7,629 bases of DNA from a virus (lineage: Duplodnaviria; Heunggongvirae; Uroviricota; Caudoviricetes): IMG/VR virus record IMGVR_UViG_2579778674_000002, positions 1 to 7,629 of that record; one strand, 5' to 3'. Every line of letters starts with the position of its first letter. Positions within the stretch are counted from its first letter, which is position 1. Below the pieces are notes generated by a model, which was not told the DNA's origin, made no database searches, and saw only the letters and a program-made list of their open reading frames with translations. Shown here one piece after another: positions 1 to 7,629 of this stretch. A program made the translations under genes and the position numbers.

Positions 1-657
1 TTTTTCCGTGAGAGCTATCCCTTCACCACGGAGAAAGTCTATCTCTCACAAATTCCGGGGCTGGTAAACATGGCGCTGTACGTTTCGCCGATTGTTTCCG
101 GTGAGGTTATCCGCTCCCGTGGCGGCTCCACCTCTGAATTTACACCGGGATATGTCAAGCCCAAGCATGAGGTGAATCCGCAGATGACCCTGCGTCGCCT
201 GCCGGATGAAGATCCACAGAATCTGGCGGACCCGGCTTACCGCCGCCGTCGCATCATCATGCAGAACATGCGAGACGAAGAGCTGGCCATTGCTCAGGTC
301 GAAGAGATGCAGGCAGTTTCTGCTGTGCTTAAGGGCAAATACACCATGACCGGTGAAGCCTTCGATCCGGTTGAGGTGGATATGGGCCGCAGTGCGGCGA
401 ACAACATCACACAGTCCGGTGGTACGGAGTGGAGCAAGCGTGACAAGTCCACGTATGACCCGACCGACGATATCGAAGCCTATGCGCTGAACGCCAGCGG
501 TGTGGTGAATATCATCGTGTTTGATCCGAAAGGCTGGGCGCTGTTCCGTTCCTTCAAAGCCGTCAGGGAGAAGCTGGATACCCGTCGGAGCTTGCCATTG
601 CTCAGGTCGAAGAGATGCAGGCCGTTTCTGCTGTGCTTAAGGGCAAATACACCATGA
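1..657 (+). CDS. E: Major capsid protein (lambda gpE-like), N-terminal part; 5' end lies upstream of the window; authentic frame ends at 587 where an internal duplication shifts the frame (ORF runs out of frame to the stop at 657)
   Basis: Frame 1 is open from position 1 (FFRESYPFTTEKVYLSQIPGLVN-MALYVSPIVSGEVIRSRGG...). The translation matches lambda major capsid protein E as I recall it. After 587 the frame reads a second copy of the same DNA out of frame (…DTRR-SLPLLRSKRCRP…) and terminates. Confidence 0.88.
   Translation, partial: FFRESYPFTTEKVYLSQIPGLVNMALYVSPIVSGEVIRSRGGSTSEFTPGYVKPKHEVNPQMTLRRLPDEDPQNLADPAYRRRRIIMQNMRDEELAIAQVEEMQAVSAVLKGKYTMTGEAFDPVEVDMGRSAANNITQSGGTEWSKRDKSTYDPTDDIEAYALNASGVVNIIVFDPKGWALFRSFKAVREKLDTRRSLPLLRSKRCRPFLLCLRANTP
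280..587 (+). repeat. Copy 1 of a 308-bp imperfect tandem direct repeat internal to gene E
   Basis: Base-by-base comparison with 588-895 at offset 308 gives 8 mismatches (copy-1 positions 285, 315, 395, 402, 423, 438, 441, 483), about 97.4% identity. Confidence 0.95.
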
Positions 658-895
658 CCGGTGAAGCCTTCGATCCGGTTGAGGTGGATATGGGCCGCAG
701 TGAGGCGAATAACATCACACAGTCCGGTGGCACGGAGTGGAGCAATCGCGACAAGTCCACGTATGACCCGACCGACGATATCGAAGCCTACGCGCTGAAC
801 GCCAGCGGTGTGGTGAATATCATCGTGTTTGATCCGAAAGGCTGGGCGCTGTTCCGTTCCTTCAAAGCCGTCAGGGAGAAGCTGGATACCCGTCG
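588..895 (+). repeat. Copy 2 of the 308-bp imperfect tandem direct repeat internal to gene E
   Basis: Same alignment as copy 1. The unit length of 308 is not a multiple of 3, so it produces a +2 frameshift in E. Confidence 0.95.
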
Positions 896-1256
896 CGGCT
901 CTCATTCCGAGCTGGAGACAGCGGTAAAAGACCTGGGTAAAGCGGTGTCCTATAAGGGGATGTATGGCGATGTGGCCATCGTCGTGTATTCCGGACAGTA
1001 CGTGGAAAACGGCGTCAAAAAGAACTTTCTGCCGGACAACACGATGGTACTGGGGAACACTCAGGCACGCGGTCTGCGCACCTATGGTTGTATTCAGGAT
1101 GCGGATGCATTGAGTGAGGGTATTAATGCGTCTCCTCGTTATCCGAAAAACTGGAAGACATCCGGCGATCCGGCGCGTGAGTTCACCATGATTCAGTCAG
1201 CACCGCTGATGCTGCTGGCTGATCCTGATGAGTTCGTGTCCGTACAACTGGCGTAA
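615..1256 (+). CDS. E: Major capsid protein (lambda gpE-like), C-terminal part in frame 3, restored by the second copy of the duplicated segment; TAA stop at 1254-1256
   Basis: ORF 615..1256 translates MQAVSAVLKGKYTMTGEAFDPVEVDMGRSEANN…GSHSELETAVKDLGKAVSYKGMYGDVAIVVYSGQYVENG…FVSVQLA, which continues the gpE sequence to its C-terminus. The first 43 aa repeat residues already encoded at 307-435 in frame 1. Confidence 0.88.
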   Translation: MQAVSAVLKGKYTMTGEAFDPVEVDMGRSEANNITQSGGTEWSNRDKSTYDPTDDIEAYALNASGVVNIIVFDPKGWALFRSFKAVREKLDTRRGSHSELETAVKDLGKAVSYKGMYGDVAIVVYSGQYVENGVKKNFLPDNTMVLGNTQARGLRTYGCIQDADALSEGINASPRYPKNWKTSGDPAREFTMIQSAPLMLLADPDEFVSVQLA

Positions 1257-1257
1257 T

Positions 1258-1285
1258 CGTGGCCCTTCGGGGCCATTGTTTCTCT
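1258..1285 (+). terminator. Stable hairpin (stem tggccc/gggcca with ttcg tetraloop, 1260-1275) followed by a T-rich tract, between the E stop and FI start; possible partial intrinsic terminator or mRNA-stabilising/translation-modulating structure
   Basis: Perfect 6-bp inverted repeat TGGCCC-TTCG-GGGCCA at 1260-1275, then TTGTTTCTCT. It begins 4 nt after the E TAA stop and ends about 22 nt before the FI ATG. Confidence 0.4.
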
Positions 1286-1297
1286 GTGGAGGAGTCC

Positions 1298-1693
1298 ATG
1301 ACGAAAGATGAACTGATTGCCCGTCTTCAGGTGCTGGGTGAGCAACTGAACCGTGATGTCAGCCTGACGGGGACGAAAGAAGAACTGGCACTCCGTGTGG
1401 CAGAGCTGGAAGAGGAGCTTGATGACACGGATGACGCTGCCGGTCAGGACACGTCTGTCAGCCCGGAAAATGCGCTGACCGGGCATGAAAATGAGGTGGT
1501 GTCAGCGCAGCCAGGGACCGTGACTGATACGGCTGCTCTGGTCACGGTTGTGGCACTGGTGACGCTGCATACCGATGCACTTCACGCCACGCGGGATGAA
1601 CCTGTGGCATTTGTGCTGCCGGGAACGGCGTTTCGTGTCTCTGCCGGTGTGGCAGCCGAAATGACAGAGCGCGGCCTGGCCAGAATGCAATAA
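1298..1693 (+). CDS. FI: Head assembly / DNA packaging protein (lambda gpFI-like)
   Basis: ATG at 1298 preceded by GGAGGAG (1289-1295). Translation MTKDELIARLQVLGEQLNRDVSLTGTKEELALRVAELEEELDD…ERGLARMQ matches lambda FI as recalled. The ORF-track start at 1259 (GTG) lies inside the hairpin and has no RBS. Confidence 0.9.
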   Translation: MTKDELIARLQVLGEQLNRDVSLTGTKEELALRVAELEEELDDTDDAAGQDTSVSPENALTGHENEVVSAQPGTVTDTAALVTVVALVTLHTDALHATRDEPVAFVLPGTAFRVSAGVAAEMTERGLARMQ

Positions 1694-1704
1694 CGGGAGG
1701 CGCT

Positions 1705-2058
1705 GTGGCTGATTTCGATAACCTGTTCGATGCTGCCATTGTCCGCGCCGATGAAACGATACGCGGGTACATGGGAACGTCAGCCACCATGACATCCGGT
1801 GAGCAGTCCGGCGCAGTAATACGTGGTGTTTTTGATGACCCTGAAAATATCAGCTATGCCGGACAGGGCGTGCGCGTTGAAGGCTCCAGCCCGTCCCTGT
1901 TTGTCCGGACTGATGATGTGCGGCAGCTGCGGCGTGGAGACACGCTGACCATCGGTGAGGAAAACTTCTGGATAGACCGGGTTTCGCCGGATGATGGTGG
2001 AAGCTGTCATCTCTGGCTTGGGCGGGGCGTACCGCCTGCCGTTAACCGTCGCCGCTGA
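1705..2058 (+). CDS. FII: Head-tail joining / head completion protein (lambda gpFII-like), GTG start
   Basis: GTG at 1705 preceded by GGGAGG (1695-1700). Translation (M)ADFDNLFDAAIVRADETIRGYMGTSATMTSGEQSG…LWLGRGVPPAVNRRR matches lambda FII. Confidence 0.9.
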   Translation: MADFDNLFDAAIVRADETIRGYMGTSATMTSGEQSGAVIRGVFDDPENISYAGQGVRVEGSSPSLFVRTDDVRQLRRGDTLTIGEENFWIDRVSPDDGGSCHLWLGRGVPPAVNRRR

Positions 2059-2069
2059 AAGGGGGATGT

Positions 2070-2648
2070 ATGGCCATACAGGGTCTTGAGCAGGCCATTG
2101 AAAACCTCAGCCGTATCAGCAAAACGGCGGTGCCTGGTGCCGCCGCAATGGCCATTAACCGCGTTGCTTCATCCGCGATATCGCAGTCGGCGTCACAGGT
2201 TGCCCGTGAGACAAAGGTACGCCGGAAACTGGTAAAGGAAAGGGCCAGGCTGAAAAGGGCCACGGTCAAAAATCCGCAGGCCAGAATCAAAGTTAACCGG
2301 GGGGATTTGCCCGTAATCAAGCTGGGTAATGCGCGGGTTGTCCTGTCCCGCCGCAGGCGTCGTAAAAAGGGGCAGCGTTCATCCCTGAAAGGTGGCGGCA
2401 GCGTGCTTGTGGTGGGTAACCGTCGTATTCCCGGCGCGTTTATTCAGCAACTGAAAAATGGCCGCTGGCATGTCATGCAGCGTGTGGCCGGGAAAAACCG
2501 TTACCCCATTGATGTGGTGAAAATCCCGATGGCGGTGCCGCTGACCACGGCGTTTAAACAGAATATTGAGCGGATACGGCGTGAACGTCTTCCGAAAGAG
2601 CTGGGCTATGCGCTGCAGCATCAACTGAGGATGGTAATAAAGCGATGA
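2070..2648 (+). CDS. Z: Tail completion protein (lambda gpZ-like)
   Basis: ATG at 2070 preceded by a G-rich RBS (GGGGGA 2061-2066). The 192-aa product MAIQGLEQAIENLSRISKTAVPGAAAMAINRV… matches lambda Z. The stop overlaps the U start (ATGA). Confidence 0.92.
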   Translation: MAIQGLEQAIENLSRISKTAVPGAAAMAINRVASSAISQSASQVARETKVRRKLVKERARLKRATVKNPQARIKVNRGDLPVIKLGNARVVLSRRRRRKKGQRSSLKGGGSVLVVGNRRIPGAFIQQLKNGRWHVMQRVAGKNRYPIDVVKIPMAVPLTTAFKQNIERIRRERLPKELGYALQHQLRMVIKR

Positions 2649-3040
2649 AACATACTGAACTCCGTGCAGCCGTACTGGATGCACTGGAGAAGCATGACAC
2701 CGGGGCGACGCTTTTTGATGGTCGCCCCGCTGTTTTTGATGAGGCGGATTTTCCGGCAATTGCCGTTTATCTCACCGGCGCTGAATACACGGGCGAAGAG
2801 CTGGACAGCGATACCTGGCAGGCGGAGTTGCATATTGAAGTTTTCCTGCCTGCTCAGGTGCCGGATTCAGAGCTGGATTCGTGGATGGAGTCCCGGATTT
2901 ATCCGGTGATGAGCGATGTCCCGGCACTGTCAGATTTGATCACCAGTATGGTGGCCAGTGGCTATGACTACCGGCGCGACGATGATGCGGGCCTGTGGAG
3001 TTCAGCCGATCTGACTTATGTCATTACCTATGAAATGTGA
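2645..3040 (+). CDS. U: Tail tube terminator protein (lambda gpU-like)
   Basis: The 131-aa product [48 protein letters not shown]…LTYVITYEM matches lambda U. The start overlaps the Z stop by 4 nt. Confidence 0.92.
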
Positions 3041-3047
3041 GGACGCT

Positions 3048-3788
3048 ATGCCTGTACCAAATCCTACAATGCCGGTGAAAGGTGCCGGGACCACCCTGTG
3101 GGTTTATAAGGGGAGCGGTAACCCTTATGCGAATCCGCTTTCAGACGTTGACTGGTTGCGTCTGGCAAAAGTTAAAGACCTGACGCCCGGCGAACTGACC
3201 GCTGAGTCCTGTGACGACAGTTATCTCGATGATGAAGATGCGGACTGGACCGCGACCGGGCAGGGTCAGAAATCCGCCGGAGATACCAGCTTCACGCTGG
3301 CGTGGATGCCCGGAGAGCAGGGGCAGCAGGCGCTGCTGGCGTGGTTTAATGAAGGTGATACCCGTGCCTATAAAATCCGCTTCCCGAACGGCGCGGTCGA
3401 TGTGTTCCGTGGCTGGGTCAGCAGTATCGGTAAGGCGGTGACGGCGAAGGAAGTGATCACCCGTACGGTGAAGGTCACCAATGTGGGACGCCCGTCGATG
3501 GCTGAAGATCGCAGTACGGTAACAGCGGCAACCGGCATGACCGTGACGCCTGCCAGCACCTCGGTGGTGAAAGGGCAGAGCACCACGCTGACCGTGGCAT
3601 TCCAGCCGGAGGGCGCAACCGACAAGAGCTTCCGTGCGGTGTCTGCGGATAAAACAAAAGCCACCGTGTCGGTCAGTGGTATGACCATCACCGTGAAAGG
3701 TGTTGCTGCAGGCAAGGTCAACATTCCGGTTGTATCCGGTAATGGTGAACTTGCTGCGGTTGCAGAAATCACCGTCACCGACAGTTAA
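3048..3788 (+). CDS. V: Major tail tube protein (lambda gpV-like) with C-terminal Ig-like (Big_2-type) domain
   Basis: ATG at 3048 preceded by GAGGA (3039-3043). The 246-aa product [24 protein letters not shown]…AEITVTDS matches lambda V. The C-terminal ~80 aa have the beta-rich T/V/S composition typical of the V Ig-like domain. The ORF-track start at 3018 overlaps U and has no RBS. Confidence 0.93.
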
Positions 3789-3803
3789 TCCGGAGAGTCA
3801 GCG

Positions 3804-4226
3804 ATGTTCCTGAAAACCGAATCATTTGAATATAACGGTGTGAGCGTCACGCTTTCTGAACTGTCAGCCCTGCAGCGTATTGAGCATCTCGCCCTGCTGA
3901 AACGACAGGCAGAACAGGCGGGAACCAGTGTCAATCGACAGGTGAGCGTGGAAGATCTCGTCAGAACCGGTGCTTTTCTGGTGGCGATGTCCCTGTGGCA
4001 TAACCATCCGCAGAAGACAAAGATGCCATCCATGAATGAAGCCGTTAAACAAATTGAGCAGGAAGTGCTTACCACCTGGCCTACAGAGGCAATTGCTCAG
4101 GCTGAAAATGTGGTAATGCGTCTGTCCGGTATGTCTGAGTTTGTTGTGAATGATGCACCTGAACAGGCAGATGACGCCGGGCCTGCAGAGCCTGTTTCTG
4201 CGGGAAAGTGTTCGACGGTGAGCTGA
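3804..4226 (+). CDS. G: Tail assembly chaperone (lambda gpG-like)
   Basis: ATG at 3804 preceded by GGAGAG (3792-3797). The 140-aa product MFLKTESFEYNGVSVTLSELSALQRIEHLALLKRQ…PVSAGKCSTVS matches lambda G. Confidence 0.92.
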   Translation: MFLKTESFEYNGVSVTLSELSALQRIEHLALLKRQAEQAGTSVNRQVSVEDLVRTGAFLVAMSLWHNHPQKTKMPSMNEAVKQIEQEVLTTWPTEAIAQAENVVMRLSGMSEFVVNDAPEQADDAGPAEPVSAGKCSTVS

Positions 4227-4642
4227 GTTTTGCCCTGAAACTGGCGCGTGAGATGGGGCGACCCGACTGGCGCGCCATGCTTGCCGGGATGTCATCCACG
4301 GAGTATGCCGACTGGCACCGCTTTTACAGTACCCATTATTTTCATGATGTTCTGCTGGATATGCACTTTTCCGGGCTGACGTACACCGTGCTCAGCCTGT
4401 TTTTCAGCGATCCGGATATGCATCCGCTGGATTTCAGTCTGCTGAACCGGCGTGAGGCTGACGAAGAGCCTGAAGATGATGTGCTGATGCAGAAAGCGGC
4501 AGGGCTTGCCGGAGGCGTCCGCTTTGACCCGGACGGGAATGAAGTTATCCCCGCTTCCCCGGATGTGGCGGGCATGACGGAGGATGACGTAATGCTGATG
4601 ACAGTATCAGAAGGGATCGCAGGAGGAGTCCGGTATGGCTGA
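3804..4642 (+). CDS. T: Tail assembly protein G-T, made by programmed -1 ribosomal frameshift at GGGAAAG (4202-4208): G frame 3804-4208, then T frame 4208-4642
   Basis: The slippery heptamer G GGA AAG sits in the G zero frame, five codons before the G stop. The -1 frame is open from 4208 to TGA at 4640-4642 and encodes VFDGELSFALKLAREMGRPDWRAMLAGMSSTEYADWHRFY…, the lambda T region. There is no RBS or ATG for an independent T start. Confidence 0.85.
4202..4208 (+). promoter_or_regulatory. -1 programmed ribosomal frameshift slippery heptamer (X XXY YYZ = G GGA AAG)
   Basis: Exact GGGAAAG in the correct phase relative to the G reading frame, with the T frame open in -1. Confidence 0.85.
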
Positions 4643-7067
4643 ACCGGTAGGCGATCTGGTCGTTGATTTAAGTCTGGATGCGGCCAGATTTGACGAGCAG
4701 ATGGCCAGAGTCAGGCGTCATTTTTCCGGTACGGAAAGTGATGCGAAAAAAACAGCGGCAGTCGTTGAACAGTCAATGAACCGGCAGGCGCTGGCTGCAC
4801 AGAAAGCGGGGATTTCCGTCGGACAGTATAAAGCCGCCATGCGTATGCTTCCTGCACAGTTCACCGACGTGGCCACGCAGCTTGCAGGCGGGCAGAGTCC
4901 GTGGCTGATCCTGCTGCAACAGGGTGGTCAGGTGAAGGACTCCTTCGGCGGTATGATCCCCATGTTCAGGGGACTTGCCGGTGCGATCACCCTGCCGATG
5001 GTCGGGGCCACCTCGCTGGCAGTGGCGACCGGTGCGCTGGCGTATGCCTGGTATCAGGGCAACTCAACCCTGTCCGATTTCAACAAAACGCTGGTCCTTT
5101 CCGGCAATCAGTCGGGTCTGACGGCAGATCGTATGCTGGTCCTGTCCAGAGCCGGGCAGGCGGCAGGGCTGACGTTTAACCAGACCAGCGAGTCACTCAG
5201 CGCACTGGTTAAGGCTGGGATAAGCGGTGAGGCTCAGATTGCGTCCATCAGCCAGAGTGTGGCGCGTTTCTCCTCTGCATCCGGCGTGGAGGTGGACAAG
5301 GTCGCTGAAGCCTTCGGGAAGCTGACCACTGACCCGACGTCGGGGCTGACAGCGATGGCACGCCAGTTCCATAACGTGACGGCGGAGCAGATTGCGTATG
5401 TTGCTCAGTTACAGCGTTCCGGCGATGAAGCCGGGGCATTGCAGGCGGCGAACGAGGCCGCAACGAAAGGGTTTGATGACCAGACCCGCCGCCTGAAAGA
5501 GAACATGGGCACGCTGGAGACCTGGGCAGACAGGACAGCGCGGGCATTCAAATCCATGTGGGATGCGGTGCTGGATATTGGTCGTCCTGATACCGCGCAG
5601 GAGATGCTGATTAAGGCAGAGGCTGCGTTTAAGAAAGCAGACGACATCTGGAATCTGCGCAAGGATGATTATTTTGTTAACGATGAAGCGCGGGCGCGTT
5701 ACTGGGATGATCGTGAAAAGGCCCGTCTAGCGCTTGAAGCCGCCCGAAAGAAGGCTGAGCAGCAGACTCAACAGGACAAAAATGCGCAGCAGCAGAGCGA
5801 TACCGAAGCGTCACGGCTGAAATATACCGAAGAGGCGCAGAAGGCTTACGAACGGCTGCAGACGCCGCTGGAGAAATATAGCGCCCGTCAGGAAGAACTG
5901 AACAAGGCACTGAAAGACGGGAAAATCCTGCAGGCGGATTACAACACGCTGATGGCGGCGGCGAAAAAGGATTATGAAGAGACGCTGAAAAAGCCGAAAC
6001 AGTCCGGCGTGAAGGTGTCTGCGGGCGATCGTCAGGAAGACAGTGCTCATGCTGCCCTGCTGACGCTTCAGGCAGAACTCCGGACGCTGGAGAAGCATGC
6101 CGGAGCGAATGAGAAAATCAGCCAGCAGCGCCGGGATTTGTGGAAGGCAGAAAGTCAGTTCGCGGTACTGGAGGAGGCGGCGCAACGTCGCCAGCTGTCT
6201 GCACAGGAGAAATCCCTGCTGGCGCATAAAGATGAGACGCTGGAGTACAAACGCCAGCTGGCTGCACTTGGCGACAAGGTTACGTATCAGGAGCGCCTGA
6301 ACGCGCTGGCGCAGCAGGCGGATAAATTCGCACAGCAGCAACGGGCAAAACGGGCCGCCATTGATGCGAAAAGCCGGGGGCTGACTGACCGGCAGGCAGC
6401 GCGGGAAGCCACGGAACAGCGCCTGAAGGAACAGTATGGCGATAATCCTCTGGCGCTGAATAACGTCATGTCAGAGCAGAAAAAGACCTGGGCGGCTGAA
6501 GACCAGCTTCGCGGGAGCTGGATGGCAGGCCTGAAGTCCGGCTGGAGTGAGTGGGAAGAGAGCGCCACGGACAGTATGTCGCAGGTAAAAAGTGCAGCCA
6601 CGCAGACCTTTGATGGTATTGCACAGAATATGGCGGCGATGCTGACCGGCAGTGAGCAGAACTGGCGCAGCTTCACCCGCTCCGTGCTGTCCATGATGAC
6701 AGAAATTCTGCTTAAGCAGGCAATGGTGGGGATTGTCGGGAGTATCGGCAGCGCCATTGGCGGGGCTGTTGGTGGCGGCGCATCCGCGTCAGGCGGTACA
6801 GCCATTCAGGCCGCTGCGGCGAAATTCCATTTTGCGACCGGGGGATTTACGGGAACCGGCGGAAAATATGAGCCAGCGGGGATTGTTCACCGTGGTGAGT
6901 TTGTCTTCACGAAGGAGGCAACCAGCCGGATTGGCGTGGGAAATCTCTACCGGCTGATGCGCGGCTATGCCACCGGCGGGTATGTCGGTGGCACCGGAAA
7001 CCGGCGGTTATGTCGGTACACCTGGCAGCATGGCGGACAGCCGCTCGCAGGCGTCCGGGACGTTTGA
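4635..7067 (+). CDS. H: Tail tape measure protein (lambda gpH-like); authentic frame runs 4635-6989, then a 28-bp insertion shifts the frame and the ORF ends prematurely at 7067
   Basis: ATG at 4635 overlaps the T stop (ATGGCTGA). Translation MAEPVGDLVVDLSLDAARFDEQMARVRRHFSG… with a hydrophobic segment, a long E/K/Q/A-rich coiled-coil region and a Gly-rich C-terminal region matches lambda H up to …LMRGYATGGYVG, after which the sequence is unrelated (GTGNRRLCRYTWQ…). Confidence 0.92.
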   Translation: MAEPVGDLVVDLSLDAARFDEQMARVRRHFSGTESDAKKTAAVVEQSMNRQALAAQKAGISVGQYKAAMRMLPAQFTDVATQLAGGQSPWLILLQQGGQVKDSFGGMIPMFRGLAGAITLPMVGATSLAVATGALAYAWYQGNSTLSDFNKTLVLSGNQSGLTADRMLVLSRAGQAAGLTFNQTSESLSALVKAGISGEAQIASISQSVARFSSASGVEVDKVAEAFGKLTTDPTSGLTAMARQFHNVTAEQIAYVAQLQRSGDEAGALQAANEAATKGFDDQTRRLKENMGTLETWADRTARAFKSMWDAVLDIGRPDTAQEMLIKAEAAFKKADDIWNLRKDDYFVNDEARARYWDDREKARLALEAARKKAEQQTQQDKNAQQQSDTEASRLKYTEEAQKAYERLQTPLEKYSARQEELNKALKDGKILQADYNTLMAAAKKDYEETLKKPKQSGVKVSAGDRQEDSAHAALLTLQAELRTLEKHAGANEKISQQRRDLWKAESQFAVLEEAAQRRQLSAQEKSLLAHKDETLEYKRQLAALGDKVTYQERLNALAQQADKFAQQQRAKRAAIDAKSRGLTDRQAAREATEQRLKEQYGDNPLALNNVMSEQKKTWAAEDQLRGSWMAGLKSGWSEWEESATDSMSQVKSAATQTFDGIAQNMAAMLTGSEQNWRSFTRSVLSMMTEILLKQAMVGIVGSIGSAIGGAVGGGASASGGTAIQAAAAKFHFATGGFTGTGGKYEPAGIVHRGEFVFTKEATSRIGVGNLYRLMRGYATGGYVGGTGNRRLCRYTWQHGGQPLAGVRDV

Positions 7068-7224
7068 GCAGAATAACCATGTGGTGATTAACAACGACGG
7101 CACGAACGGTCAGATAGGGCCACAGGCACTGAAGGCTGTTTATGACGTAGCCCGTAAGGCGGCAATGGATGTTGTGACCGGGCAGATGCGCGATGGTGGT
7201 CTGTTCTCCGGAGGTGGACGATGA
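6967..7224 (+). CDS. H: C-terminal portion of the tape measure protein H displaced into frame 1 by the 28-bp insertion (H-matching from about 7018); probably not independently expressed
   Basis: The frame-1 ORF encodes …GYVGTPGSMADSRSQASGTFEQNNHVVINNDGTNGQIGPQALKAVYDVARKAAMDVVTGQMRDGGLFSGGGR, the expected gpH C-terminus. Its stop overlaps the M start (ATGA at 7221-7224), as expected for H. Confidence 0.8.
   Translation: MPPAGMSVAPETGGYVGTPGSMADSRSQASGTFEQNNHVVINNDGTNGQIGPQALKAVYDVARKAAMDVVTGQMRDGGLFSGGGR
6990..7017 (+). repeat. 28-bp insertion in H that partly repeats the adjacent sequence (accggcggNtatgtcggt at 6972-6989 and 7000-7017)
   Basis: 18-bp direct repeat with one mismatch, 28 bp apart. 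Removing 6990-7017 restores a continuous H reading frame of 853 codons. Confidence 0.85.
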
Positions 7225-7550
7225 AAACCTTCCGCTGGAAAGTGAAACCCGGTATGGATGTGGCTTCGGCCCCTTCCGTCAGGAAGGTGCGCTTTGGTGA
7301 TGGCTATTCTCAGCGTGCGCCTGCCGGGCTGAACGCCGACCTGAAAACGTACAGCGTGACGCTTTCTGTTCCCCGCGAGGAGGCCACGGCACTGGAATCG
7401 TTTCTGGCAGAGCACGGGGGCTGGAAGGCCTTTCTGTGGACGCCGCCTTATGGCTACCGGCAGATAAAGGTGACCTGCGCAAAATGGTCGTCGCGGGTCA
7501 GTATGTTGCGTGTTGAGTTCAGCGCAGAGTTTGAACAGGTGGTGAACTGA
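7221..7550 (+). CDS. M: Minor tail protein (lambda gpM-like)
   Basis: The 109-aa product MKTFRWKVKPGMDVASAPSVRKVRFGDGYSQRAPAGLNADLKTYSVTLSVPREEATALESFLAEHGGWKAFLWTPPYGYRQIKVTCAKW… matches lambda M. The start overlaps the end of H. Confidence 0.9.
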   Translation: MKTFRWKVKPGMDVASAPSVRKVRFGDGYSQRAPAGLNADLKTYSVTLSVPREEATALESFLAEHGGWKAFLWTPPYGYRQIKVTCAKWSSRVSMLRVEFSAEFEQVVN

Positions 7551-7629
7551 TGCAGGATATCCGACAGGACACACTGAATGAATGCACCCGTGCGGAGCAG
7601 TCGGCCAGCGTGGTGCTCTGGGAAATCGA
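7550..7629 (+). CDS. L: Minor tail protein (lambda gpL-like), 5' part only; continues beyond the window
   Basis: ATG at 7550 overlaps the M TGA (TGATG). Translation MQDIRQDTLNECTRAEQSASVVLWEI matches the lambda L N-terminus. The frame is open to the window end. Confidence 0.8.
   Translation, partial: MQDIRQDTLNECTRAEQSASVVLWEI

What the first reader, a model, noticed from the sequence alone, without database searches (positions are those of the whole stretch)
280..895. 308-bp imperfect tandem duplication inside the major capsid gene E shifts its frame
Positions 280-587 and 588-895 are head-to-tail copies with 8 mismatches in 308 bp. Because 308 is not a multiple of 3, the E frame is broken after codon …KLDTRR at 587, reads the second copy out of frame and stops at 657. 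The true E continuation is only recovered in frame 3 (ORF 615..1256). As written, no intact major capsid protein is encoded, which for a lambda-type phage means no viable particles.
Basis: seen in the sequence. Interest (0 to 1): 0.7.

Follow-up and report, generated by a model that had tools for sequence, protein, structure and literature searches.

The report
False tandem duplication from misassembly
The 308-bp repeat that breaks the lambda-type capsid gene is really in this sequence, but it is almost certainly a short-read assembly error in a 2013 draft E. coli genome, where a piece of a second, related prophage's capsid gene was pasted in front of the true copy, so it says nothing about the phage's viability.

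Summary
In detail: 280-587 and 588-895 are head-to-tail copies with 8 mismatches in 308 nt, and the E frame breaks (stop at 655-657, E resumes in ORF 615-1256).

The biological reading is very probably wrong.
- The window is the whole 7,629-bp contig AYKD01000080.1 of the E. coli FCH1 draft, built from 90-bp Illumina reads with SOAPdenovo v1.05 and scaffolding.
- The copies are two different natural E alleles. Copy 2 belongs to the contig's own backbone. Copy 1 carries the RM10042-type state at every differing site, and that foreign patch starts at the duplication boundary (col 279).
- A second lesion has the same build. A 28-nt insert in tape-measure gene H (6972-6999) ends in 10 nt of a Nissle-type H allele, jumps back, and also shifts the frame.
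- Deleting 279-586 and 6972-6999 leaves 7,293 nt that match two independent natural prophages with 2-3 mismatches and no gaps. Both have an intact 341-aa E and 853-aa H.
- The junction and both truncated proteins occur nowhere else in the collections searched.

Verdict: a false "heterotype" duplication at assembly joins, confidence about 0.9. Low interest. Mapping reads or PCR across E would settle it.

The parts
1..278 (+). Major capsid gene E, codons 27-119, native backbone allele (P1). The first 26 codons lie off the contig.
   Evidence: Frame-1 translation FFRESYPF... is collinear with lambda and EC416 gpE from residue 27. This stretch is identical to L023 and L017 over these columns and EC416-type at informative columns 162 and 216.
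279..586 (+). It corresponds to columns 279-586 of E from a different, RM10042-type allele. This is the extra, false copy.
   Evidence: It differs from the native sequence at 9 sites (279, 285, 315, 395, 402, 423, 438, 441, 483), and every one carries the RM10042 state. The best natural matches are 99.7% identical, with 389 records at 99% or more.
586..587 (+). Novel junction: column 586 of the foreign chunk is abutted to column 279 of the native allele. There is 0-1 nt of microhomology.
   Evidence: Flanking bases do not extend the repeat. The 26-mer across the junction is absent from GTDB species representatives, IMG/VR and JGI metagenomes. No record among 5,426 complete E. coli genomes holds it in one piece.
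587..1256 (+). ORF 615..1256 is its in-frame remnant.
   Evidence: 588-1300 is 713/713 identical to L007. Joining 1-279 to 588-1256 gives an open frame whose product is 100% identical to EC416 gpE residues 27-341.
6972..6999 (+). Second lesion of the same kind: a 28-nt insert in tape-measure gene H. It consists of the shared 18-nt motif with one odd G at 6980, then GGCACCGGAA from a Nissle-type H allele, and is followed by a jump back to the motif. It shifts the frame (28 mod 3 = 1).
   Evidence: This is the only gap in the blastn alignment against EC416. The alignments with EC416 and Nissle 1917 show the structure. 6945-6999 matches the Nissle-type allele at 98.2%. No complete E. coli genome has the insert. 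Equivalent deletion phases start at 6972 to 6980.
4635..7224 (+). Tape-measure gene H. As written it is truncated to 810 aa with a stop at 7065-7067. With the 28 nt removed it is 853 aa and its stop overlaps the M start at 7221.
   Evidence: The exact 810-aa product is seen on this contig only.

Best explanation
The duplication is an assembly artefact: a false 'heterotype' duplication. Strain FCH1 most likely carries at least two lambda-like prophages with nearly identical head and tail genes. SOAPdenovo v1.05 broke the de Bruijn graph where the two copies differ. During scaffolding or gap filling it placed sequence built from reads of the second prophage (P2: RM10042-type E, Nissle-type H 3' end) in front of the contig of the first prophage (P1) that covers the same columns, instead of merging the two. 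This added 308 nt in E and 28 nt in H. The real P1 prophage has a single-copy, intact E and H. Shown here: the two-allele composition of both lesions; the exact coincidence of the foreign patch with the duplication boundary; restoration of a sequence 99.97% identical to natural intact prophages after deleting the two chunks; uniqueness of the junction and of both truncated products; and the assembly method. Inferred: that FCH1 holds a second lambdoid prophage, and which SOAPdenovo step made the joins.
For: (1) Source. The window is the whole contig AYKD01000080.1 of GCA_000511545.1, which is E. coli FCH1 (PMC6455142). It was sequenced with 90-bp paired-end reads and a 500-bp insert, and assembled and scaffolded with SOAPdenovo v1.05 into 162 scaffolds. 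The authors themselves report nearly identical multicopy genes assembling as mixtures (PMC4270446).

(2) Two alleles. Copy 2 differs from EC416 at 1 site and is 308/308 identical to L007 and L009. Copy 1 carries the RM10042 state at all differing sites. Seven of the 8 differences fall on codon position 3 (P = 0.0026 if positions were random) and 6 are synonymous. That is standing allelic variation, not decay of a broken gene.

(3) Boundary coincidence. The foreign patch starts at column 279, exactly at the duplication boundary. The columns flanking the junction (279 and 588) are both polymorphic among natural alleles, at a background density of 5.7% (joint P about 0.003).

(4) A second lesion with the same architecture lies in H: P1, then 28 nt ending in P2-type sequence, then a jump back to P1. 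Both lesions shift the frame, while every other gene on the contig is full length.

(5) Deleting 279-586 and 6972-6999 gives 7,293 nt with 2 mismatches and 0 gaps to metagenome scaffold L023, and 3 mismatches and 0 gaps to L017. Both encode a 341-aa E and an 853-aa H.

(6) Uniqueness. The junction is absent from 5,426 complete E. coli genomes, GTDB representatives, IMG/VR and JGI metagenomes. The exact 213-aa and 810-aa products each occur on one contig among about 15 billion proteins.

(7) The error class is documented: 'duplicated overlapping contigs' placed adjacently (PMC2864568), heterotype false duplications (PMC9516828), and SOAPdenovo1's improper handling of heterozygous contigs together with the old gap-closure module kept in v1.05, which could select wrongly between highly similar repeats (PMC3626529).
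Against: No reads were available, so the absence of read support across the junctions is not shown. There are no Ns at either junction, whereas false duplications on one scaffold are typically separated by gaps, so a gap-filling or abutting step has to be assumed. The paper does not say that gap filling was run. The second prophage of FCH1 was not observed directly, because other AYKD01 contigs could not be retrieved. The inserted E chunk matches no complete-genome allele at 100%: the best is 99.7%, with the mismatch at column 501. The G at 6980 is also unmatched. I could not derive both join coordinates from one simple k-mer rule.
Confidence: 0.9

Rival explanations
1. The feature is real: illegitimate recombination between two co-resident lambdoid prophages (or a prophage and an infecting phage) joined column 586 of one E allele to column 279 of the other. 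A second such event occurred in H. The result is a defective prophage with broken capsid and tape-measure genes.
For: The two copies do come from two different alleles, as inter-prophage recombination would give. Lambdoid prophages are mosaic and many E. coli genomes hold several copies of this region, up to 5 places per genome. The contig is continuous with no Ns.
Against: A single crossover would make everything left of the junction P2-type, yet 1-278 is identical to the P1 relatives L023 and L017. So a double event, or an exact coincidence of P2's divergence with the junction column, is needed. The same thing has to happen twice within 6.4 kb. There is 0-1 nt of microhomology. Neither lesion is seen in any other assembly. 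No other sign of gene decay appears on a backbone 99.97% identical to intact prophages.
Confidence: 0.06
2. The feature is real: an ordinary 308-bp tandem duplication arose within one E gene, for example by replication slippage or unequal sister exchange. One copy was later patched by gene conversion from another prophage's E allele.
For: Perfect head-to-tail register with no indels. The differences are confined to a 205-bp patch (279-483) of copy 1, the size of a conversion tract.
Against: The conversion tract would have to begin exactly at the duplication boundary. This does not explain the H insert, whose extra 10 nt are foreign-allele sequence rather than a copy of local sequence. No microhomology is present. 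The lesion is unique to this contig.
Confidence: 0.02
3. The feature is an artefact, but upstream of the assembler: chimeric library fragments or PCR jumping between the two prophage templates, or a mixed culture, produced real reads across the junctions, and the assembler followed them faithfully.
For: This explains the two-allele composition and the lack of Ns at the joins.
Against: Chimeric reads are rare and normally lose to the majority path at about 116x coverage. Two such events winning in one 7.6-kb contig is unlikely. It does not predict that the join lies at an inter-allele SNP.
Confidence: 0.02

Closest known systems
False 'heterotype' duplications / duplicated overlapping contigs in genome assemblies (Kelley & Salzberg 2010, PMC2864568; Ko et al. 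2022, PMC9516828)
   Same: Two slightly divergent versions of one locus are both kept and laid side by side, which mimics a recent tandem duplication. The copies differ at variant sites that already exist. Removing one copy restores collinearity and intact genes.
   Different: Here the two 'haplotypes' are paralogous prophages in a haploid bacterium, not the homologous chromosomes of a diploid. The copies are abutted without a gap. The scale is small, at 308 and 28 nt.
Bacteriophage lambda head-tail module, gene E (gpE, Pfam PF03864) through L
   Same: Gene order E-FI-FII-Z-U-V-G-T-H-M-L and gene sizes are identical to lambda. The window is 95.9% identical to lambda DNA over E. The G/T slippery heptamer GGGAAAG is conserved at 4202.
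   Different: As deposited, E and H are frameshifted. After removing the two inserts they are full length and essentially identical to the natural prophage alleles in EC416, L017 and L023.
Genuine E truncations in defective or hybrid lambdoid prophages (loci L020, L022, L025)
   Same: The same FI protein and tail module, with an incomplete E gene.
   Different: The real cases are clean 5' deletions or replacements. They leave a 254-aa remnant next to unrelated genes and are found in several independent assemblies. They are not a chimeric tandem insert unique to one contig.

Membership tests
Lambda gpE major capsid protein (PF03864 Phage_cap_E) | Significant match to the family profile | tested here: met
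   E-values 5.7e-32 (ORF 70-657) and 2.5e-43 (ORF 615-1256), covering profile positions 47-217 and 122-328 of 329.
Lambda gpE major capsid protein (PF03864 Phage_cap_E) | Single uninterrupted ORF of about 341 codons in the D-E-FI context | tested here: not met
   As written the frame breaks at 587/588 and stops at 657, and the first 26 codons are off the contig. After deleting one copy the frame is open and 100% identical to EC416 gpE residues 27-341. The FI..L context is as in lambda.
False heterotype duplication (assembly error) | The two copies differ at pre-existing allelic or paralogous variant sites, not at random new mutations | tested here: met
   All copy-1 states match the RM10042 allele and all copy-2 states match the EC416/L007 allele. 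Seven of 8 differences fall on codon position 3.
False heterotype duplication (assembly error) | Removing one copy restores collinearity with independent references | tested here: met
   The repaired 7,293 nt has 2-3 mismatches and 0 gaps to L023 and L017.
False heterotype duplication (assembly error) | The copies sit at a contig join or gap within a scaffold | tested here: inconclusive
   The assembly was scaffolded with SOAPdenovo v1.05, but the window has no Ns and the contig layout is not available. The boundaries do lie at inter-allele SNP columns.
False heterotype duplication (assembly error) | Reduced read depth, discordant read pairs and no reads spanning the junction | not testable with these tools
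False heterotype duplication (assembly error) | A second divergent copy of the locus exists in the same genome | not testable with these tools
   Other AYKD01 contigs could not be retrieved. Indirect support: the contig holds RM10042-type E and Nissle-type H sequence, and E. coli genomes hold up to 5 copies of this region.
Genuine tandem duplication (slippage or unequal exchange) | Copies are identical at birth and later differences are random with respect to codon position and known alleles | tested here: not met
   the differences reproduce a natural allele exactly and are biased to the third codon position.
Genuine tandem duplication (slippage or unequal exchange) | Found in independent isolates or assemblies of the lineage | tested here: not met
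   The junction is absent from every collection searched, and the truncated products occur on this contig only. The nearest relatives have a single copy.

The most novel reading that the evidence does not exclude
Both lesions are real. In strain FCH1, two co-resident lambdoid prophages exchanged short segments by non-homologous, out-of-register template switching. This created chimeric partial duplications that inactivate the capsid and tape-measure genes of an otherwise pristine prophage, which would be a very recent snapshot of prophage inactivation driven by inter-prophage recombination.
Probability: 0.07. Interest if true: 0.3.

Novelty: not a real feature. Interest (0 to 1): 0.08.

Why it matters
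The value is mainly quality control. If taken at face value, this contig would lead an annotator to call E and H pseudogenes and to score the prophage as defective. The evidence says the underlying prophage is intact and nearly identical to prophages in pig-associated E. coli. The case also gives a practical signature for spotting such errors from sequence alone in older short-read drafts. The signature is a tandem 'duplication' whose two copies carry different natural alleles, whose boundary sits on an inter-allele SNP, and whose removal restores a perfect match to relatives. If the structure were real, it would be a modest curiosity about prophage decay.

Tried and rejected
(1) Post-duplication divergence. 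Rejected: the differences reproduce existing alleles and are biased to the third codon position.

(2) Looking for the junction elsewhere. A 26-mer search of GTDB representatives, IMG/VR and JGI metagenomes, and an 80-nt junction query against complete E. coli genomes, found nothing in one piece.

(3) The idea that the 28-nt H insert is a natural in-frame length variant. Rejected: no complete genome has it, and its tail is the Nissle-type allele followed by a jump back.

(4) Deriving both join coordinates from one de Bruijn rule (contig ends at a branch point, k-mer overlap trimmed). This fits the E join, with a SNP at column 279 and the next polymorphic column at 588, but not the H join, which would need k = 19, outside the 21-63 range used. 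The exact SOAPdenovo step is therefore unresolved.

(5) Finding a genome announcement under AYKD00000000. None was found. The strain was identified through AYKD01 in PMC6455142, and the methods through the strain name in PMC4270446. S1 Table gives no k value.

(6) Retrieving other FCH1 contigs to see the second prophage directly. This is not possible with the look-up tools, which work by exact protein rather than by assembly.

(7) Programmed frameshifting or recoding as a rescue for E. Not pursued: a 308-nt out-of-register insert with a stop 70 nt downstream has no resemblance to a recoding site, and the artefact evidence makes the question moot.

(8) Loci L003-L005 never appeared on the scripting machine, so the alignment tool was used for them instead.

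Full report
OBSERVATION. Tandem Repeats Finder reports one array at 280-895 with period 308, 2.0 copies, 97% matches and no indels. The repeat finder gives the same pair. A base-by-base comparison finds exactly 8 mismatches, at 285, 315, 395, 402, 423, 438, 441 and 483 versus +308. The repeat cannot be extended on either side, so the junction has no microhomology in this phase. Because 308 mod 3 = 2, frame 1 (...FKAVREKLDTRR) runs out of frame into a TGA at 655-657, and the rest of E is in frame 3 as ORF 615..1256. Both halves match Pfam PF03864 Phage_cap_E.

WHAT THE WINDOW IS. An exact-protein look-up shows that the window is the complete 7,629-bp contig AYKD01000080.1 of draft assembly GCA_000511545.1. 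[quoted passage not shown] FCH1 is a CTX-M-1 isolate from a person on pig farm C in the Netherlands in 2011. It was sequenced with 90-bp paired-end Illumina reads (500-bp insert) and assembled and scaffolded with SOAPdenovo v1.05, with k chosen between 21 and 63 to minimise the scaffold count, giving 162 scaffolds at about 116x coverage (PMC4270446). Those authors note that nearly identical multicopy genes in their strains were assembled as mixtures. The contig carries the lambda head-tail module E-FI-FII-Z-U-V-G-T-H-M-L in lambda order.

THE TWO COPIES ARE TWO DIFFERENT ALLELES. About 3,300 of 5,426 complete E. coli genomes carry this region, and every listed hit spans 992 bp, which is a single copy. 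Against the closest complete genome (the EC416 prophage, 98.6% identical over the whole window), copy 2 differs at one site, while copy 1 carries all 8 inter-copy differences plus position 279. A five-way alignment shows that at every one of these sites copy 1 has the state of a different, widespread E allele, exemplified by strain RM10042. It also shows that the left flank 1-278 is again EC416-type at the informative columns 162 and 216.
- Seven of the 8 differences fall on codon position 3 (P = 0.0026 under random placement), and 6 are synonymous.
- This is standing variation between functional alleles. It is not decay after a duplication in a broken gene.
- The inserted chunk matches natural alleles at 99.7%, with 389 records at 99% or more.

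A SECOND LESION WITH THE SAME BUILD. The only other structural difference from EC416 is a 28-nt insertion at 6972-6999 inside tape-measure gene H. It truncates H from 853 to 810 aa. Alignment with EC416-type and Nissle-1917-type H alleles shows the following layout:
- The left flank is EC416-type at 15 of 16 sites that distinguish EC416 from Nissle.
- A 90-nt stretch shared by both allele types follows.
- The window then continues for 10 nt (GGCACCGGAA) along the Nissle-type branch.
- It then jumps back 28 nt and continues along the EC416-type branch.
No complete E. coli genome has this insert. So both lesions read as backbone, then a short chunk of a second allele homologous to what follows, then backbone. 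Both shift the frame. All other genes on the contig are full length.

REMOVING THE TWO CHUNKS RESTORES A NATURAL PROPHAGE. The exact FI protein of the window occurs on many contigs. Two of them are near-identical relatives. Deleting 279-586 and 6972-6999 leaves 7,293 nt with 2 mismatches and no gaps to metagenome scaffold L023 (ERZ28656631), and 3 mismatches and no gaps to L017 (GCA_018403555.1). Both relatives encode a 341-aa E and an 853-aa H.
- The repaired E product is 100% identical to EC416 gpE over residues 27-341.
- The repaired H is 853 aa, and its stop overlaps the M start.
- The E insert has one best phase, 279-586, so it begins exactly at the first base that distinguishes the foreign allele.
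- The columns flanking the junction (279 and 588) are both polymorphic among natural alleles, although only 5.7% of columns are (joint P about 0.003).

UNIQUENESS. The 26-mer across the junction is absent from GTDB species representatives, IMG/VR and JGI metagenomes. No complete E. coli genome holds the junction in one piece. The exact 213-aa E fragment and the exact 810-aa H each occur on one contig, this one, among about 15 billion proteins.

MECHANISM. The best explanation is a false heterotype duplication made during assembly. The error class is well described: divergent copies of one locus are assembled into overlapping contigs and laid side by side, which gives the illusion of a duplication (PMC2864568; PMC9516828). 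The SOAPdenovo developers state that the original program handled heterozygous contigs improperly. They also state that v1.05 lacked the new gap-closure module, and that the old one could choose wrongly between highly similar repeats (PMC3626529). In a haploid bacterium the two 'haplotypes' are two co-resident lambdoid prophages.
- Shown: the chimeric composition, the boundary coincidence, the restoration of a natural sequence, the uniqueness, and the assembly method.
- Inferred: that FCH1 has a second lambdoid prophage, and that the scaffolding or gap-filling step made the joins.
- Unresolved: I could not reproduce both join coordinates from one simple k-mer rule. The absence of Ns means an abutting or gap-filling step must be assumed.

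RIVALS. There are two real-biology rivals: illegitimate recombination between prophages, and a true duplication followed by gene conversion. Both need the foreign tract to start exactly at the junction. Both need the left flank to be backbone-type despite a crossover. Both need the same improbable event to occur twice in 6.4 kb, on a backbone with no other decay, and to be seen in no other assembly. I give them about 0.06 and 0.02. Genuine E truncations in related loci look different: they are clean 5' deletions next to unrelated genes, and they recur across assemblies. An artefact upstream of the assembler, such as chimeric library molecules, gets about 0.02.

VERDICT. This is not a real biological feature (confidence about 0.9) and interest is low. 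Mapping the reads of PRJNA224245 across 586/587 and 6999/7000, or a PCR across E, would settle it.

Noticed in passing
window 6972-6999 (gene H, 4635-7224): A 28-nt frameshifting insert in the tape-measure gene truncates H to 810 aa. It is a chimera of a Nissle-type H allele tail and a jump back into the backbone allele, the same build as the E duplication.
   Followed up: yes
window 1 and 7629: The window is an entire 7,629-bp draft contig (AYKD01000080.1, E. coli FCH1). It starts at codon 27 of E and ends 26 codons into L. This is typical of repeat-induced contig breaks in multi-prophage genomes.
   Followed up: yes
L020 1-8000, L022 1-8000, L025 1-8000: Three related loci have the same FI and lambda-type tail genes, but the lambda head genes are replaced. 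In their place are DUF4222, a D5_N/DUF5906 primase, SSB, a separate 346-aa Phage_cap_E capsid gene, an HDPD decoration gene, AlpA, in L022 and L025 a Nu1-like gene, and an unannotated or DUF2971 gene. A genuine 254-aa E remnant is left in L020 and L022, and none in L025. This looks like a satellite-like, capsid-encoding element fused to a lambdoid tail module.
   Followed up: no
window 1390-4082 versus 4083-7629: Substitutions relative to the EC416 prophage are strongly clustered, at 16-20 per kb across FI to G and 1-5 per kb elsewhere. Relatives L023 and L017 match throughout, so this is natural mosaicism of the head-tail joining and tail genes among lambdoid prophages.
   Followed up: partly
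window 4202-4208: The lambda G/GT programmed -1 frameshift heptamer GGGAAAG is conserved at the G-T overlap (G 3804-4226, T frame 4208-4642).
   Followed up: partly
window 1261-1274: A GGCCC-UUCG-GGGCC hairpin followed by a U-rich tract lies directly after the E stop codon (-13.5 kcal/mol, z = -2.5). It is conserved in lambda, EC416 and RM10042, and is terminator-like or an mRNA-stabilising element between E and FI.
   Followed up: partly
window 6980: A single G in the inserted H chunk matches neither the EC416-type nor the Nissle-type allele in any complete E. coli genome (best match 98.2%). It may be a read or consensus error inside the mis-filled stretch, or a private SNP of the second prophage.
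   Followed up: partly
window as a whole; L001, L023: The closest relatives of the backbone prophage include pig isolates: EC416, PEC41 and ETEC1721 are recorded from Sus scrofa. L023 is a metagenome scaffold whose sample label (XIAO16) may denote a pig-gut study; I did not check this. This fits FCH1's origin on a pig farm.
   Followed up: no
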